DNA from: Octopus vulgaris
Taxonomy: Eukaryota
Length of the DNA: 64,000 bases
Direction of reading: 5' to 3'
Assembly: GCA_951406725.2 (NCBI GenBank)
Contig: OX597818.1
Span: forward strand, 31,558,001 to 31,622,000
The notes beneath the pieces were generated by a model that was not told the DNA's origin, searched no databases, and worked only from the letters and a program-made list of their open reading frames with translations. Positions 22,387 to 48,212 of this stretch are shown here, one piece after another (position 1 is the stretch's first letter; every line of letters begins with the position of its first letter). The position numbers were made by a program, and so were the translations under genes.

Positions 22387-22621
22387 TAAGCAATATAGCC
22401 GATACCATAAACTTGAGAATGACCGATTATCAAGAACCCAAGAGCTTATTCTCACGTTAGATTTCAGTAAAGTTCAAGAATGAAATCAATATGCAGCATC
22501 GATTCCGGGCACATCGAAGCTTTCAGATTAACGAATAAAAAGAGCAAAAGTCAAAAGGACGTACACTTAAAATGTCTTAGTATGATGCTCAATATGAGAT
22601 GGAAACAAAGAGTGAGTGTAT

Positions 22622-22648
22622 AACGTTTCGAGGCTGGCTCTTCGTCAG
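22622..22648 (-). ncRNA. Minimal hammerhead core motif (stem I not evident)
   Basis: Minus strand reads CTGACGA-a-GAG-ccagc-CTC-GAAACGTT. Confidence 0.45.
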
Positions 22649-23087
22649 GAAAGGTTCGGCGATCTTACTGACACAACAAGCAAGAGAGTTCCTGCTATAC
22701 TCTACTAAGTATAACAGCTAAATCAGTCAAATGACAGTCTATTATTTTGGGGGAAGGAAGAACATATTAAAGAATGTAATCCTAGAAATTATCTTAAAAT
22801 GATATGGTTACGGCTGGAATTCCTTTTATTGCAGGTTTGTTCAATCAAGAAGTTTAAGAACATTTAAGAAATAAGTGGTAATTTTACCGTTGAGCGTGTT
22901 AAATTATAAGGCACAAAAAGAAAATGACTCTCCCCAGACACAACAGAATATGCTTCAACACACGAACTCATATAAAGAATCTTGCAAACCAAATCCAAAA
23001 ACGAAATATTAAGAACAACAATAAAGAATAAAAGAAACCATGCCAACTTTACCACTTTCTGTAGCGGTTTTCAGTATCGATACCAAA

Positions 23088-24790: not shown

Positions 24791-25307
24791 GAGAACGAGG
24801 TGGCAGAAGAGGAGGAATTCGACGATATTGAATGACGTGGACGACGCTGATGATAAGGACATCGACCACAGAAGAGATGCTGATGGCATTTTAAAACGAA
24901 AAGCAATTATAAACTGCGCCATCGTTATTGACGCTCACCTTTGAAAGAAGCTCTGTATCATTAGTGATTCGTCATGTTAGAAATAGCAGCAAATATCCTT
25001 TACATCCTATCTTAAGAAAAACAAAAACAAAAACAAAAAATAAAAGACATTGCATAATGTGATTCTGATACACTGCGTCAGAACAAAAAAAAACTGATGT
25101 GTAAGTCTTTTTTTGAAGAAAGGGATGTTGACCCTCACGATCTCTCTTGCAGTGGCAGACTAGGCATGAACTTAATGCTATCTGTTTTCGTAGCATTGAA
25201 AACAAAGTTGACGGTGATGGAATTTGAACTTTGAGCTCATAGTTCCAGAACAAATACCGCTACGTATTCTATCTAACGCTCTAGCGACTGCTATATCGCT
25301 TCTTATC

Positions 25308-25558
25308 ATTTCTTTATTGCCCACAAGGGGCTAAACATATAGGGGACAAACAAGGACAGACAAACGGATTAAGTCGATTAGATCGACCCCCACTACACAT
25401 TTGGTACTTAATTTATCGACCCCGACAGGATGAAAGGCAAAGTCGACCTCGGCGGAATTTGAACTCAGAACGTAGCGGCAGACGAAATACCTATTTCTTT
25501 ACTACCCACAAGGGGCTAAACACAGAGAGGACGTAGAAGGACAGACAAACGGATTAAG
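25308..25558 (-). mobile_element. SINE family A partial tandem
   Basis: atttctttattgcccacaaggggctaaac...gaactcagaacgtagcggcagacgaaatacctatttc. Confidence 0.85.
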
Positions 25559-25775
25559 TACCGTCACCACAGACAACACCAAACCGCTGCCACAATGCTG
25601 AAATATTCTAATATTGTTTCTCACCAGAAAAAAGCATAACAGTATGATGTCTAATCTCTCTGCCACCAACAGTTATGATGTTATTCAGGCTATTTCGCAA
25701 TAAAACTCCCACTAAAACCATAACCACCTTCGAACCAGAAACGGATGAGATTTGGGTTAGTCGCTATTTAACTTT

Positions 25776-26028
25776 CATTATTTACATTATTCATATTTGA
25801 CGGATATTTGTCCTCGTCTTGTTTGTTGTTAACACAACGTTTCGGCTGATATACCTTCCAGCCTTCATCAGGTGTCTTGGGGAAATTTTGAACCTGGGTT
25901 CTCATTCCTAACGTATGCTTCGATGTCGTTATTATTATTATTGTTATTGTTCAGGTCACTGCTTGGAATCGAACTCGGAATCTTGGGGTTAGTAGCCCAC
26001 GCTATTAACCAGTACGCCATATACCCGT
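25776..26028 (-). mobile_element. tRNA-headed, hammerhead-carrying short element (left, inverted copy)
   Basis: Minus strand: tggcgtactggtta (A box)...gagttcgattcc (B box)...short (AAT)n...acacCTGATGAaggctgg...cagccGAAACGTTgtgt; reverse complement of 26029-26355. Confidence 0.8.
25831..25876 (-). ncRNA. Minimal type I hammerhead ribozyme motif
   Basis: gacac-CTGATGA-a-GGCTG(gaaggtatat)CAGCC-GAAAC-GTT-gtgtt; stems I and II pair, stem III is the palindrome AACGTT. Confidence 0.7.
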
Positions 26029-26091
26029 GGATATAGTGGTTAGGAACGCGGGCTACTAACCTCAAGATTCGAGTTCGAGACCAGGCAGTGA

Positions 26092-26180
<89 letters not shown>

Positions 26181-26390
26181 GTAATAATAATAATAACAAC
26201 AACAACTTCGAAAAATATGTTAGGAATGAAAACCCAGGTTCAAAATTTTCCCAAGACACCTGATGAAGGCTGGAGGGTATATCAGCCGAAACGTTGTGTT
26301 AACAACAAACAAGATGAGGACAAATATCCGTCAATTGTAAGTAATGTAATTAATGTACGTAATTCCTCATCTCTTAAATATAGAACTGTG
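26029..26390 (+). mobile_element. tRNA-headed, hammerhead-carrying short element (right copy)
   Basis: tagtggttagg, gagttcgagacc (B box), expanded (AAT)n at ~26096-26195, hammerhead motif downstream. Confidence 0.8.
26255..26300 (+). ncRNA. Minimal type I hammerhead ribozyme motif
   Basis: gacac-CTGATGA-a-GGCTG(gagggtatat)CAGCC-GAAAC-GTT-gtgtt. Confidence 0.7.
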
Positions 26391-26759
26391 CTATTTAAAC
26401 TTAGTTTAATTTTCTCTTCTTCATTTGTGGTTTTAATATTCTTGCATTTCATAGAACAGAAACTACGGTTCTTAAAAAGTCGATGTTTTTTTAAAACCTT
26501 ATCTACGTATTTTATTTATCACAATTTAATTACAAGGAAACAAAAACGGTGGTGGTGGGGGAGAAAAAAGAGGAAAAGTAAAAACGGAGGGGATTAAAAG
26601 ACAGAAGGGGGTGGGCAGTGGGCCGCACCCCCTAGAATGAATGGCGTGTTCAGTCGCATCCCAGGGTCATAACCGCAATGGTGTTGTCGCGGAGAAGGTC
26701 AACAACATTCGCTGCAACGGTCACCCCTATTTCGCAGGGATTTTACAAAGAACATGTAT

Positions 26760-27178
26760 ATTCTTTTATTCTTTTATTTGTTTCAGCCATTTGGCTGTGG
26801 CCATTCTGGAGCACCGCCTTTAGTCGAGCAAATCGACCCCAGGACTTATTCTTTGTAAGCCTAGTACTTATTCTATTGGTCTCTTTTGCCGAACTGCTAA
26901 GTTACGGGGACGTGAACACACCAACATCGGTTGTCAAGCGACGGTGGGGAGGGGACAGACAGACACACAAACGTACACACCAACATACACACACACATAT
27001 ATATATATATATACGACGGGCTTCCTCTCAGTTTCCATCTACCAAATCTACTCACAAGGTTTTGGTCAGCCCGAGACTGTAGTTGAAGACACTTGCTCAA
27101 GGTGCCACGCAGTGGGATTGAACCTGGAACCATGTGGTTGGTATGAAAGCTACTTACCACACAGCCACTCCTGCGCCT
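26760..27178 (-). mobile_element. SINE family B
   Basis: Reverse complement of the copy at 16321. Confidence 0.9.
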
Positions 27179-30100
27179 GAAATGAAAGATGTTTCTGAAA
27201 TGAAAGAAGAAAAAATTTCAAAATCTAATTTTTTTTACACTTTGTTTCCCCTTTGCCATTCGTAGTCTTTTCCTTTTCTCCATGAATAGTTTGTAATGTT
27301 TGTTGTCCATCGATTTGTTGTAGAAAACAGTTCGCACCATCCGACTCAACTAAGCCTTATAATATCTTCACCAATACTACTGACAGTAGGCGCATCATAG
27401 TCATCAATATAATCTCTATTAACACATCATGATGAAAGCATCTAACCCCCACGTCCTACCCATATTATAAAATCTAGTCGTCTCTACCATCATCACCATC
27501 TCGATTTACAGCTTTATCACCCACATCACTGGCCTTATATTTATAAAAGATCGCGTCTTCAACCCCCAACGCAATGAAGTCAACAACACACACACGTCTT
27601 TCCTTATCCAACCCTATATCCCATCTGCACTGAAAGGCCCATTCTATGACTCATTTGCTTAGTAATAGAAGTTTGTCCATTTTATCGTTATTTCCGTTGT
27701 TTAGGTTTTAAAATCCCACTAGGGTCACAAGCATGACATCGAATCCCATTAAACATTACCTTTTATAACCTACTTTACTATGTGGGTGCAAGAGCGGGCG
27801 AGTGCGAGATATTCTCAGCTTAAACATTTTATTCTGTTCCTCTTTACTTTATCCGTTTTCCATTCCGTTTTTGTTATCATTCTCCATTTTTTTTTTTTAT
27901 CTCTCGCGTTCTTTAACCTTCTTCACTTTCTCGACTCATTTTCATATTCACTTGCCCCATGTTTGTTCCTTTTGTTTCTTTTGCAAATAATATCATAATT
28001 ATTTTTCTAAACTTAACAGCTTATCTTCCTTCATTTTTTTTTTTTTTCCCTTTCCATTTTCCACTTCCTCTCTCTTTTCAGATCATCATTGTCTTTCACC
28101 TCTCCTTCCCTCCCGCCACCGTGATTTTCATTCATTCTGTGTGTTTAACATTATTATTCACTAGTTTATCTCTTCCGTTCTTATGTCATAGCAATGACTA
28201 CATCTGCTGCATCAGTGCAACCAGCAATAAACCGAACATAAAACGCAAGCAAAAAAAGAGCTGCAGTAACACGTTAAACAGATACTTCGTTGATTAAATG
28301 TTCTTACAATACAAAACCATTCAGAGGTGCCAAAGACAATATTTGCTTTTCTTTGGAGATACAAATCTCTGGTCTGGATAAGTGACTAATAATAATAGAT
28401 TATAATTCACTGATCATTTTTATTTTTATTTTTTTTACTTCTGCTTATTATTTATGCTTGTTATTTGTGCTTGTTTTTTATTATTATTTTTTTATTAGAA
28501 TTTGATTTTGGCTTTGTATTATGTTTTCTTTTGTTTTTCATATTTTTTCAAGAAAAATATTGCACTCACTGTTTTTCGATTATGTGATTAAAGAAGCAAC
28601 GTATAAAAGAAAACAAAAACAATACATATAGGAATGCGTAAGTGACACACACACACACACACGCACATACGCACACACACACACACTCACACACAGTACA
28701 CAAAGATATGCACACATTCTCACACACACACAAACACACACAAGCACACAAAGATATACACACACTCTCTCACACACTCACACAACCACACCACACACAC
28801 ACATATCTTAACATATTCATTAACATACACATATACACTTCTTCAAATATACATAAGATACACACACACACATACACAAACACACACACACATATTAAGA
28901 ACTTGTCTTAGAATCCTTGTCACTGGGAATAACTCTATAAGGAACATAAGCGTCGTGAAGAGCCTCCATAATTTTAGGAAAACACTCATCATTAAGATCC
29001 CTCACCTCGAAAAGTGATAATATATATATATTCAGAGTGTGTGTATGTTTGTATATGTGTTTATGCATATTTGTATATGTATCAAAATGTATCAATTTGT
29101 ACTAGATATCTAGAAAAGTTGATGCATAGATATCTGTGTGTAAATACATACATACATAAATAAATATGCATGTGAATGCATGATTATTCACATATGCATA
29201 CGCATGTATTTAGATGCAAAACAGCGATATAGAAGGGGGTCGTTCATAATCGAGGAAGCAGAAACGAAACTATTTGACTGATCACTAGCATTCTGAAAGA
29301 TAAACAGATCGGTAGATAAGAGGAATCTAGACGTGATTTATTTTCCAGATCTTTCCTCAAATACGAAAGAAACATATGCAATACTAGTGTTAATGTCATA
29401 AACTTATTCCTACTACACCATAACAGTACAAAGAATTGCAGGTGGATATCGCACGAAATATATTGTTGCTCTTGTACATTGATGACAGATATTCGTATAC
29501 ATCAATTCCGCCATAACAATATTTCATGTTTTTCATGCAACATGTTCGCGAGTATAAAGAATATAAAGTGATGTATCTATATCATTAAACAATGCACGTA
29601 TTGTCACAATGGGAAATAAGTTTATTTGTTGGCAAAGGAAAATGCTTTCGAAGATTGGATTCTTCAGATGAATACACCAAAACATTTCTATCGTAAAGAA
29701 ACCTCGTCATACAAGATTGATGTAATTTTTCAGGGATATTTTTAGTATATTTCTTGGATCCCGAAAACAGATAATGTTAATTCAATCTCTATATAATGTG
29801 ATATGAAAATAAATATTATCCACTACATTGTTATTTAGTAAATAGCATTTTCCAGAGTAATCTACAGGTTTGATCGAATCCATCACCTTTCACGCTACAA
29901 TAAAATTTCATTTCATTACAATAAAAGTGCAATAATTTTCTTCAAATCTAGGTTCGTTATAACCAAACCCAAAAGAAAAGCAAAATCATCGTTGACAGGA
30001 TTTGAGCTTTGTAAGGAAAGAAATGCAACTGTTTATTGAAGATCAGCCACGCTACCGTTTCAGTACCTCTTCTGCATTTGATATAATAAACTTCACAATT

Positions 30101-47782: not shown

Positions 47783-48212
47783 GCTGGTAAAGAAATTCGA
47801 TGAGGCTAGTTTCGACATTTATAATCACTTCATCAGAAATTGTCGACACTTCGTCGCCAACGAAGATAATAGCTTATAATTATTCATAATATATATAAGT
47901 ATGAGTGAAACCAAGGTAATGCATAATAAAATTGCTTTTAAATAATTAATAATTGAATTATTCATTTACATTAAAGTGATTTTTATCAATTAGTACTTAG
48001 AATCACATTACTTGATAGAGCTAGCGAAAATGTCAGATTCGAAAATATGTTATTGAGCTAAGTATCGTCATTTTGTGATGTAGAGTGTAGTTTTCTGTCT
48101 GTGAGAGATTGATCAGAGTTGATTCAGATAAAACATGTCCAAGTATATTCGTATAGCAGTAAGTGTAAACAGTGTGAATTTGCTAAAAGTTCAGGCTCAT
48201 AATTTTCCCCCT

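What the first reader, a model, noticed from the sequence alone, without database searches (positions are those of the whole stretch)
25776..26390. Head-to-head inverted pair of a tRNA-promoter + (AAT)n + hammerhead ribozyme element (candidate Penelope-mobilised SINE or retrozyme)
Seen: two diverged copies of one ~250-360 bp unit join at their 5' ends near 26028. Each has a tRNA-like head (A box, CTACTAA loop, B box GAGTTCGA..CC), an (AAT)n spacer of different length, and gacac-CTGATGA-a-GGCTG...CAGCC-GAAAC-GTT-gtgtt. The core and stems are identical in the two copies, while the stem II loop and flanks differ. Known: Penelope-like elements carry minimal type I hammerheads whose palindromic stem III forms in dimers, and they often insert with an inverted truncated partner. 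Inference: this is a non-autonomous Pol III-transcribed element that self-cleaves (as a dimer through AACGTT) and borrows Penelope RT/GIY-YIG, unlike ordinary SINEs that borrow LINE tails. Read-through transcription would also make a long dsRNA.
Basis: partly seen in the sequence, partly recalled or inferred. Interest (0 to 1): 0.85.

Follow-up and report, generated by a model that had tools for sequence, protein, structure and literature searches.

The report
Penelope retrotransposon with tRNA-derived head
This is one insertion of an abundant Penelope-type jumping gene, made of two back-to-back copies of its end segment; the segment begins with a tRNA-like sequence that likely serves as its promoter, and the paired copies likely record two simultaneous copying events at one DNA cut.

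Summary
The inverted pair is real, but the unit is not a free-standing chimeric SINE. It is the terminal repeat (pLTR) of a protein-coding Penelope-like element. In this genome the same head-(AAT)n-hammerhead follows the stop of a broken RT-GIY-YIG ORF, and it also runs in frame into the ORF start; the hammerhead lies in the first codons. There are roughly 20,000 arms, all decayed in the samples seen. The window pair is one insertion flanked by a ~12-bp duplication, as in 59 of 70 tested pairs. Minimal hammerheads, inverted arms and a one-sided tail are known Penelope traits. Three things were not found in print. (1) 72 of 76 classifiable pairs have one long and one short 3' end (38 expected), which points to twin priming from the two RT start sites. 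(2) A tRNA-like A/B-box head opens the element, and 56 of 70 head-bearing copies start there. (3) The ~2.5-kb coding strand has no T4 run in its column majority, so Pol III could read through it. Pol III use and cleavage are untested, and RNA-seq showed only read-through. Verdict: new variant of a known kind.

The parts
25763..25774 (+). Left copy of the ~12-bp target-site duplication
   Evidence: flanking direct repeats in 59 of 70 long/short pairs vs 2.8% of shuffled flank pairings
25775..26026 (-). Left arm: pLTR copy with near-complete head and the SHORT 3' end (tail position ~150)
   Evidence: 93-94% to column majority
25831..25876 (-). Minimal type I hammerhead, left arm; predicted cut between 25836 and 25835
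   Evidence: cleavage not tested
25775..25905 (-). First codons of the Penelope ORF (ATG at 25905), cut off at the short RT start site
25929..25951 (-). Short (AAT/AAC)n spacer, left arm
25952..26026 (-). tRNA-like head, left arm: A box 26019-26009, B box from 25976, tRNA-like spacing
   Evidence: best colinear match among the distinct tRNA genes retrieved is tRNA-Arg(TCG), L242
26023..26032 (.). Junction: decayed GCCC-AC-GGGC palindrome at which the two arms meet
   Evidence: a perfect 32-nt version of the junction occurs at 70 sites
26029..26095 (+). tRNA-like head, right arm, 7 nt missing in the A box; B box from 26071
26096..26204 (+). Expanded (AAT)n spacer, right arm
26226..26388 (+). 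First ~54 codons of the Penelope ORF (ATG at 26226), open to the LONG 3' end (short end plus ~30-nt tail)
   Evidence: matches the N-terminus of 847-aa PLE protein P0003, 19/45 identical, E 1e-6; continues in frame into the ORF in L144
26255..26300 (+). Minimal type I hammerhead, right arm (stem I 5 bp, stem II 5-6 bp, loop-less AC|GU stem III); predicted cut after 26295
   Evidence: fits the min-HHR description in PMC4209133; cleavage not tested
26390..26402 (+). Right copy of the target-site duplication

Best explanation
The pair is a single insertion of the terminal repeat (pLTR) of a protein-coding Penelope-like retrotransposon, likely made when both nicked target strands each primed a cDNA, one from each of two start sites, on RNA likely transcribed from the tRNA-like head by Pol III. 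Shown: the element reads head - (AAT)n - ATG with the hammerhead in its first codons - RT - GIY-YIG-type EN - stop - ~30 nt - head again; there are two 3' ends about 30 nt apart; pairs have one of each; one duplication brackets the pair; most head-bearing copies start at the head. Inferred: (1) the RNA starts about 6 nt before tRNA position 1, from the internal A/B-box promoter; (2) a protein dimer makes staggered nicks ~10-14 bp apart and starts reverse transcription inside the ORF start, at the short site on one strand and the long site on the other; (3) priming in the 5' pLTR gives only the ~270-nt SINE-like unit, while priming in the 3' pLTR gives ORF-bearing, usually truncated arms; (4) the two cDNA ends join head to head, through the self-complementary GCCC-AC-GGGC when both reach the RNA start, or by other microhomology when one is short; (5) in some events the two templates are different RNAs. 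The hammerhead probably works only as a dimer or with the protein bound, and need not cut for insertion.
For: ORF link: 569-aa RT+EN frame in L106 followed by head and hammerhead; RVT_1, E 2.7e-6, below the curated cut-off; hammerhead in frame with the ORF start; head directly before the ORF start in L306 and L307. One event: duplication in 59 of 70 pairs vs 2.8% null. Two primings: 72 long/short, 3 short/short and 1 long/long among 76 classifiable pairs of 89, expected 38, p 1.7e-17, seen in all five sampling groups. Unpaired arms use both ends about equally (52 long, 48 short). Two templates in some events: N7 allele discordant in 8 of 57 pairs; T131 on the long arm only in 13 pairs vs short arm only in 2; the window's arms differ at the linked head markers and at T131. 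RNA start at the head: 56 of 70 head-anchored copies begin 0-11 nt upstream of the 24-mer; 27 of 36 hammerhead-selected arms that reach the head start end there, vs 7 of 43 in the 55 nt before (four rows reclassified by me); 0 of 5 copies that run from head into ORF start extend beyond the head start. Pol III fit: tRNA-like A/B spacing; 0 T4 runs in 2476 nt of column majority; 0.69 T4/kb in 62 family frames vs 2.52/kb in 26 other LINE-like frames of equal T content. Literature: PMC11167929 (two internal RT starts explain the tail; both strands cut and extended; dimer predicted; HHR cleavage not needed in vitro).
Against: Three raw RNA-seq runs of organism B show equal depth on both strands, 72-76% of reads running on into unrelated sequence and no pile-up of starts or ends; they give no sign of a discrete Pol III or cleaved RNA. 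The T4 absence is weak by itself: P 0.05-0.22 against base shuffles, 0.18-0.43 against dinucleotide shuffles and 0.10 against codon shuffles, per segment; the 62 frames are not independent. No second Penelope family was available as a control. An uncapped Pol III RNA must still be translated, and that is unexplained. Arms share alleles more often than random (8 discordant vs 17.8 expected; head marker 2 of 18), so many pairs may use one template. Most unpaired arms carry no remnant of the opposite end (4 of 42, 3 of 37), so twin priming is not obligatory. No intact full-length copy was seen among the hits examined.
Confidence: 0.6

Rival explanations
1. Same Penelope identity and twin priming, but the RNA is made by Pol II or by read-through. 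The head is a captured tRNA/SINE relic, and 5' ends pile up there because the palindrome is a preferred joining point or because a tRNA-like fold is cut by RNase P.
For: Known PLE promoters are Pol II-type internal promoters (PMC2377424, PMC8557442, passages). RNA-seq looks like read-through. 20 of 70 head-anchored copies match the native upstream sequence for only 1 nt, near tRNA position +1. 70 perfect palindromic junctions exist.
Against: Many copies end at the head start with no palindromic partner, or with a partner truncated elsewhere. 5' ends reach to about -7 and rarely further. T4 runs are absent from the coding strand. ARAGORN and Rfam do not recognise a cloverleaf.
Confidence: 0.2
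2. One reading: the short unit is a separately propagating Pol III SINE that borrows the Penelope protein, with short copies making further short copies.
For: About three quarters of head-bearing copies are short. A long-ended short copy carries promoter, ORF start and both RT start sites, which by PMC11167929 should suffice. There is a weak trend to more N7-A and G129 alleles in short copies (20/87 vs 3/33; 12/80 vs 1/29).
Against: The same sequence and both allele sets occur in ORF-linked copies, and no marker is confined to short copies (p 0.07-0.42). Priming in the 5' pLTR of the full RNA gives the same product with no second element.
Confidence: 0.12
3. One cDNA folds back on the small 5' hairpin and copies itself, giving the inverted arm.
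For: The junction is centred on the palindrome, and arms are more alike in alleles than random.
Against: A self-copy cannot be longer at the 3' end than its template, yet pairs have one long and one short end; in the window the arm with the native centre is the short one. Alleles are discordant in part of the pairs.
Confidence: 0.05
4. A retrozyme that spreads as circular RNA from tandem hammerhead repeats, or two unrelated insertions adjacent by chance.
For: A few short tandem pLTR repeats exist (L265, L308, L309).
Against: 1 tandem vs 89 head-to-head pairs. Element ends do not fall at the cleavage site. One duplication brackets the pair. 19 of 30 loci are paired, at about 1 arm per 120 kb.
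Confidence: 0.03

Closest known systems
Penelope/Poseidon-type PLEs, e.g. Poseidon of Anolis carolinensis (PAc; PMC11167929) and Drosophila virilis Penelope (PMC2377424)
   Same: Single RT + C-terminal GIY-YIG-type ORF; pLTR; hammerhead overlapping the ORF start; two 3' ends ~30 nt apart (tail); 5'-truncated and inverted arms.
   Different: The pLTR starts with a tRNA-derived A/B-box head and most copies begin exactly there. The coding strand lacks T4 runs. Known PLE promoters are Pol II-type. Clade was judged from domain order and motifs, not from a tree.
Metazoan PLE min-HHRs (PMC4209133)
   Same: Short helix I, unpaired base before helix II, G10.1-C11.1, palindromic 15.2-16.2 with no loop 3; opposite-strand pairs 100-700 bp apart already noted there.
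   Different: Helix II is 5-6 bp rather than 7-8. The sections read mention no tRNA head.
Schistosoma Sm-alpha / Sj-alpha SINE-like repeats with hammerhead (review passages, PMC6765202)
   Same: Pol III-type promoter followed by a hammerhead.
   Different: Those are tandem, non-coding and released by cleavage. Here the unit is part of a coding PLE, is paired head to head, and keeps its promoter.
TRIMp3: Cassandra, Helenus, Ajax (PMC10886601, passages)
   Same: A small-RNA-derived Pol III promoter inside a terminal repeat.
   Different: Those are non-autonomous LTR elements, and that paper argues their autonomous partners must use Pol II. Here the head sits in the protein-coding element.
L1 twin priming (recalled)
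   Same: Both target strands prime cDNA and give an inverted arm within one TSD.
   Different: In L1 the second primer anneals internally and the arms hardly overlap. Here both arms start at fixed sites near the same 3' end and duplicate the same sequence.
Octopus tRNA-derived SINEs OK/OR1/OR2 (Ohshima & Okada 1994; title seen in reference lists, content recalled, paper not held)
   Same: tRNA-derived octopus repeats; OR1/OR2 are recalled as tRNA-Arg-derived.
   Different: Not compared. The short unit may already be catalogued under one of these names or in Repbase/Dfam.

Membership tests
Penelope-like element (C-terminal EN) | Single ORF with PLE-type RT followed by GIY-YIG EN | tested here: met
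   L106 569-aa frame: RVT_1 E 2.7e-6 (below cut-off); 39-67% identical end to end with homologs, of which P0069 passes the GIY-YIG cut-off. The family's own EN gave no Pfam hit.
Penelope-like element (C-terminal EN) | pLTR: same segment after the ORF stop and before the ORF start | tested here: met
   seen in separate copies, no single complete pLTR-ORF-pLTR copy seen
Penelope-like element (C-terminal EN) | Hammerhead in the pLTR, overlapping the ORF start | tested here: met
Penelope-like element (C-terminal EN) | 30-40-nt tail at one end; inverted 5'-truncated arm | tested here: met
Penelope/Poseidon clade (vs Neptune, Nematis) | RT phylogeny with named references | not tested
   no named PLE references among the hits; only domain order and motifs seen
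Minimal type I hammerhead ribozyme | Core CUGANGA / GAAA / UH, stems I and II, palindromic 15.2-16.2 | tested here: met
   Rfam has no hit
Minimal type I hammerhead ribozyme | Covariation or excess conservation | tested here: not met
   core 4.7% vs 4.6% mismatch; 4 compensatory cells over 13 pairs in 200 arms. Copies decay neutrally; the only common non-CpG core variant is at the free N7. No cross-family DNA was available.
Minimal type I hammerhead ribozyme | Self-cleavage as dimer | not testable with these tools
   needs an in vitro assay
tRNA-derived SINE | tRNA-related head with A and B boxes at tRNA spacing at the 5' end | tested here: met
   the tRNA set retrieved covers only some isotypes, so 'Arg' is provisional
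tRNA-derived SINE | Independent non-autonomous lineage distinct from its partner's own end | tested here: not met
   the unit is the partner's pLTR; no allele confined to short copies
tRNA-derived SINE | Pol III transcription | tested here: inconclusive
   5'-end pile-up and T4 absence for; RNA-seq uninformative
Non-LTR retrozyme | Head-to-tail tandem units each with a hammerhead | tested here: not met
   1 tandem vs 89 head-to-head pairs

The most novel reading that the evidence does not exclude
An autonomous, protein-coding retrotransposon transcribed end to end by RNA polymerase III from a captured tRNA promoter, with terminators purged from a 2.5-kb ORF. Its own 5' end doubles as a self-renewing SINE, and it inserts as a dimer carrying two RNAs, possibly held together by the hammerhead's palindromic stem, each primed from a different start site on opposite DNA strands.
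Probability: 0.3. Interest if true: 0.85.

Novelty: new variant of a known kind. Interest (0 to 1): 0.6.

Why it matters
How Penelope-like elements form their inverted arms and one-sided tail is an open question (PMC8557442 asks for mechanistic work; PMC11167929 found two RT start sites but did not explain the inversions in the text read). The near-strict rule of one long and one short end inside one duplication gives a genome-scale, countable signature and a direct in vitro test: twin priming. Autonomous retrotransposons are generally held to use Pol II and SINEs Pol III (PMC10886601). A coding element that starts with a tRNA promoter and avoids T4 would break that split and show one way a SINE can arise from its own partner. 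Practically, annotation will split this family into a 'SINE' and a 'Penelope'.

Tried and rejected
Rfam and ARAGORN found neither hammerhead nor tRNA. My first idea, snap-back of one cDNA, was dropped. Homing into the ATT just before the head (the PAc cut motif) was rejected as the cause of the 5'-end pile-up: the ORF is not upstream and the duplication brackets the whole pair. C1:107191460/107194335 looked like a full tandem element but holds two separate pairs. No intact ORF was found: the longest stop-free frame was 569 aa, and a 600-aa match had 3 stops (only the top 75-150 candidates of thousands were scored). A search with a distant homolog to obtain a second PLE family as T4 control returned hits overlapping this family's places and no loci; other LINE-like frames, labelled by eye, were used instead. 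No RNA holder was listed in the run index; the raw reads laid gave no start or end pile-up. Unpaired arms mostly lack a hidden partner. Earlier scan findings: none. Literature searches showed no paper on a tRNA-headed PLE or on PLE twin priming in the listings and passages seen. The library lacks most subscription papers, Repbase and Dfam; Ohshima & Okada 1994 and Lunse 2017 were not held; the supplement of PMC13282606 was listed but not read and may name this family.

Full report
OBSERVATION. The window lies in a 2.8-Gb animal genome, likely an octopus judging from its repeats (recalled; species not determined). Two copies of one unit meet head to head at 26027-26028. Their tails are 90% and their heads 83-86% alike. 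Each holds a minimal type I hammerhead, with predicted cuts after 26295 and 25836. The right head lacks 7 nt in its A box. Rfam and ARAGORN call nothing here. A direct repeat brackets the pair at 25763-25774 and 26390-26402.

FAMILY. Exact counts in the genome are 1745 for a 24-nt head motif, 2166 for the 33-nt hammerhead core and 70 for a perfect 32-nt palindromic junction; reversed controls gave 0. Since 13 of 139 unselected arms keep the 33-mer, there are roughly 23,000 arms (rough). Copies are a median 93-95% identical to the column majority. Head and tail are linked within 1 kb in 57 of 70 head-anchored copies; the other 13 break off, mostly at the (AAT)n, into unrelated sequence.

IT IS A PENELOPE pLTR. 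Upstream of the head, L010, L020, L022 and L028 carry the broken end of an RT-GIY-YIG ORF that stops about 36 nt before the head motif. The EN end has 4191 first-look candidates. L106 has a 569-aa open frame (RVT_1 E 2.7e-6, under the cut-off) followed by head and hammerhead. It aligns end to end with ~830-850-aa RT-EN proteins, one homolog passing the GIY-YIG cut-off. Downstream, the sequence after the hammerhead continues in frame into the ORF N-terminus (L144; 148 sites). The window's own frame from ATG 26226 matches the N-terminus of homolog P0003 (E 1e-6). So the hammerhead lies in the first codons, as in Anolis Poseidon (PMC11167929, parts 1-2 of 4 read). L306 and L307 show head-(AAT)n-ATG-hammerhead-ORF in one piece. 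No intact full-length copy was among the hits examined.

THE PAIR IS ONE EVENT WITH TWO PRIMINGS. Arms end at two places, near tail position 143-150 and at 175, matching the known 30-40-nt tail (PMC8557442, passages) that PMC11167929 ties to two RT start sites. In all loci fetched up to then I found 89 head-to-head, 5 tail-to-tail and 1 tandem pairs. Of the 89, 13 could not be classed; of the other 76, 72 have one long and one short end, against 38 expected (p 1.7e-17), in every sampling group. Of 70 such pairs with a locatable long end, 59 have a flanking direct repeat scoring 8 or more, against 2.8% of shuffled pairings. A fold-back of one cDNA cannot give this, because the copy could not be longer than its template. 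Priming on both nicked strands, one from each site, can (inference). Alleles are shared between arms more than at random but not always: N7 is discordant in 8 of 57 pairs (17.8 expected), the head marker in 2 of 18, and T131 sits on the long arm alone in 13 pairs and on the short arm alone in 2. Some events therefore likely use two RNAs; the window pair differs at three such markers. Against obligatory twin priming, most unpaired arms have no trace of a partner.

THE HEAD. It is colinear with tRNA genes of this genome, best with tRNA-Arg(TCG) among the limited set retrieved. Of 70 head-anchored copies (the first 71 listed on C1 less one already held; a few are near-duplicates), 56 begin 0-11 nt upstream of the motif and 14 run on toward the ORF; one of the 56 has ORF sequence behind a short inverted piece. 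In 60 loci chosen on the hammerhead side, 7 of 43 arms end in head positions 20-74 but 27 of 36 at the head start (I moved four rows at -13 to -19 into that class because the extra match is the palindrome). Among 48 copies running into the ORF start, 5 reach the head, 2 completely, none beyond it. The simplest reading is that the RNA starts there. The coding strand has no T4 in 2476 nt of column majority. Decayed frames have 0.69 T4 per kb, against 2.52 in 26 other LINE-like frames labelled by eye. The shuffle tests alone are weak (P 0.05-0.43), and the copies are not independent. Three raw RNA-seq runs gave equal strands, 72-76% run-on into unlike sequence and no start or end pile-up, as expected from read-through of many copies; they neither show nor exclude a rare Pol III RNA. 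How such an RNA would be translated is unexplained.

THE HAMMERHEAD. It fits the min-HHR described for PLEs, where opposite-strand pairs 100-700 bp apart were already noted (PMC4209133, parts 1-2 of 4 read). In copies it is not protected: 4.7% vs 4.6% mismatch, 4 compensatory cells, and 23 of 139 arms intact. The only common non-CpG core variant is at the free N7, which hints at constraint in source elements. Cleavage is untested.

SINE OR NOT. Short copies look like SINEs and could re-amplify, but no allele is confined to them, and priming in the 5' pLTR of the full RNA yields the same product. Known neighbours are Sm-alpha (PMC6765202, passages), retrozymes (PMC7229834, passages; bioRxiv 10.64898/2026.07.22.740005, part 1 of 5 and passages), TRIMp3 (PMC10886601, passages) and the Pol II-type Penelope promoter (PMC2377424, passages). 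An octopus repeat survey (PMC13282606, parts 1-2 of 3; supplement not read) lists Penelope families without such detail. PMC6962438 and PMC3531059 were seen as passages only and added nothing. Ten searches showed no tRNA-headed PLE or PLE twin priming. The short unit may still be one of the 1994 octopus SINEs or a Repbase entry, which I could not check.

VERDICT. Identity as a PLE pLTR about 0.97; single event 0.9; twin priming 0.75; Pol III start 0.55. New variant of a known kind, interest 0.6.

Noticed in passing
window 22610-22660 (-); weaker at 47836 (-) and 8323 (-): Another hammerhead-like core with GAAAC-GTT and a 3-bp stem II near 22648, without a clear stem I; possibly a relic of a different Penelope family.
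   Followed up: partly
L150, L137, L031: The element's (AAT)n is often interrupted by LINE-like coding DNA (R4/Dong-like by eye) or by other SINEs, which explains many head-only or tail-only copies.
   Followed up: partly
L265, L308, L309, L258: Short tandem or partial-tandem repeats of pLTR plus the first 60-250 nt of ORF, resembling early retrozyme-like arrays.
   Followed up: no
family tail position 131 (window 26350 region): The T allele is enriched on long-ended arms (37 of 118 vs 15 of 131, p 1.5e-4); it may bias the choice of RT start site or mark the template copy.
   Followed up: partly
window 25300-25560 and 26790-27180: Other abundant SINE-like repeats flank the pair, including a 67-nt direct repeat 185 nt apart; names not tested.
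   Followed up: no
L170:993 in runs X21-X23: About 300 reads per run share one loose end just upstream of the head, carrying a short inverted head piece: one highly transcribed locus with a palindromic junction.
   Followed up: no
L110, L174, L210, L061: A second tRNA-headed family with A/B boxes and a different body occurs in the fetched loci.
   Followed up: no
L233: Cluster of seven tRNA calls (six Cys-like) within 3 kb.
   Followed up: no
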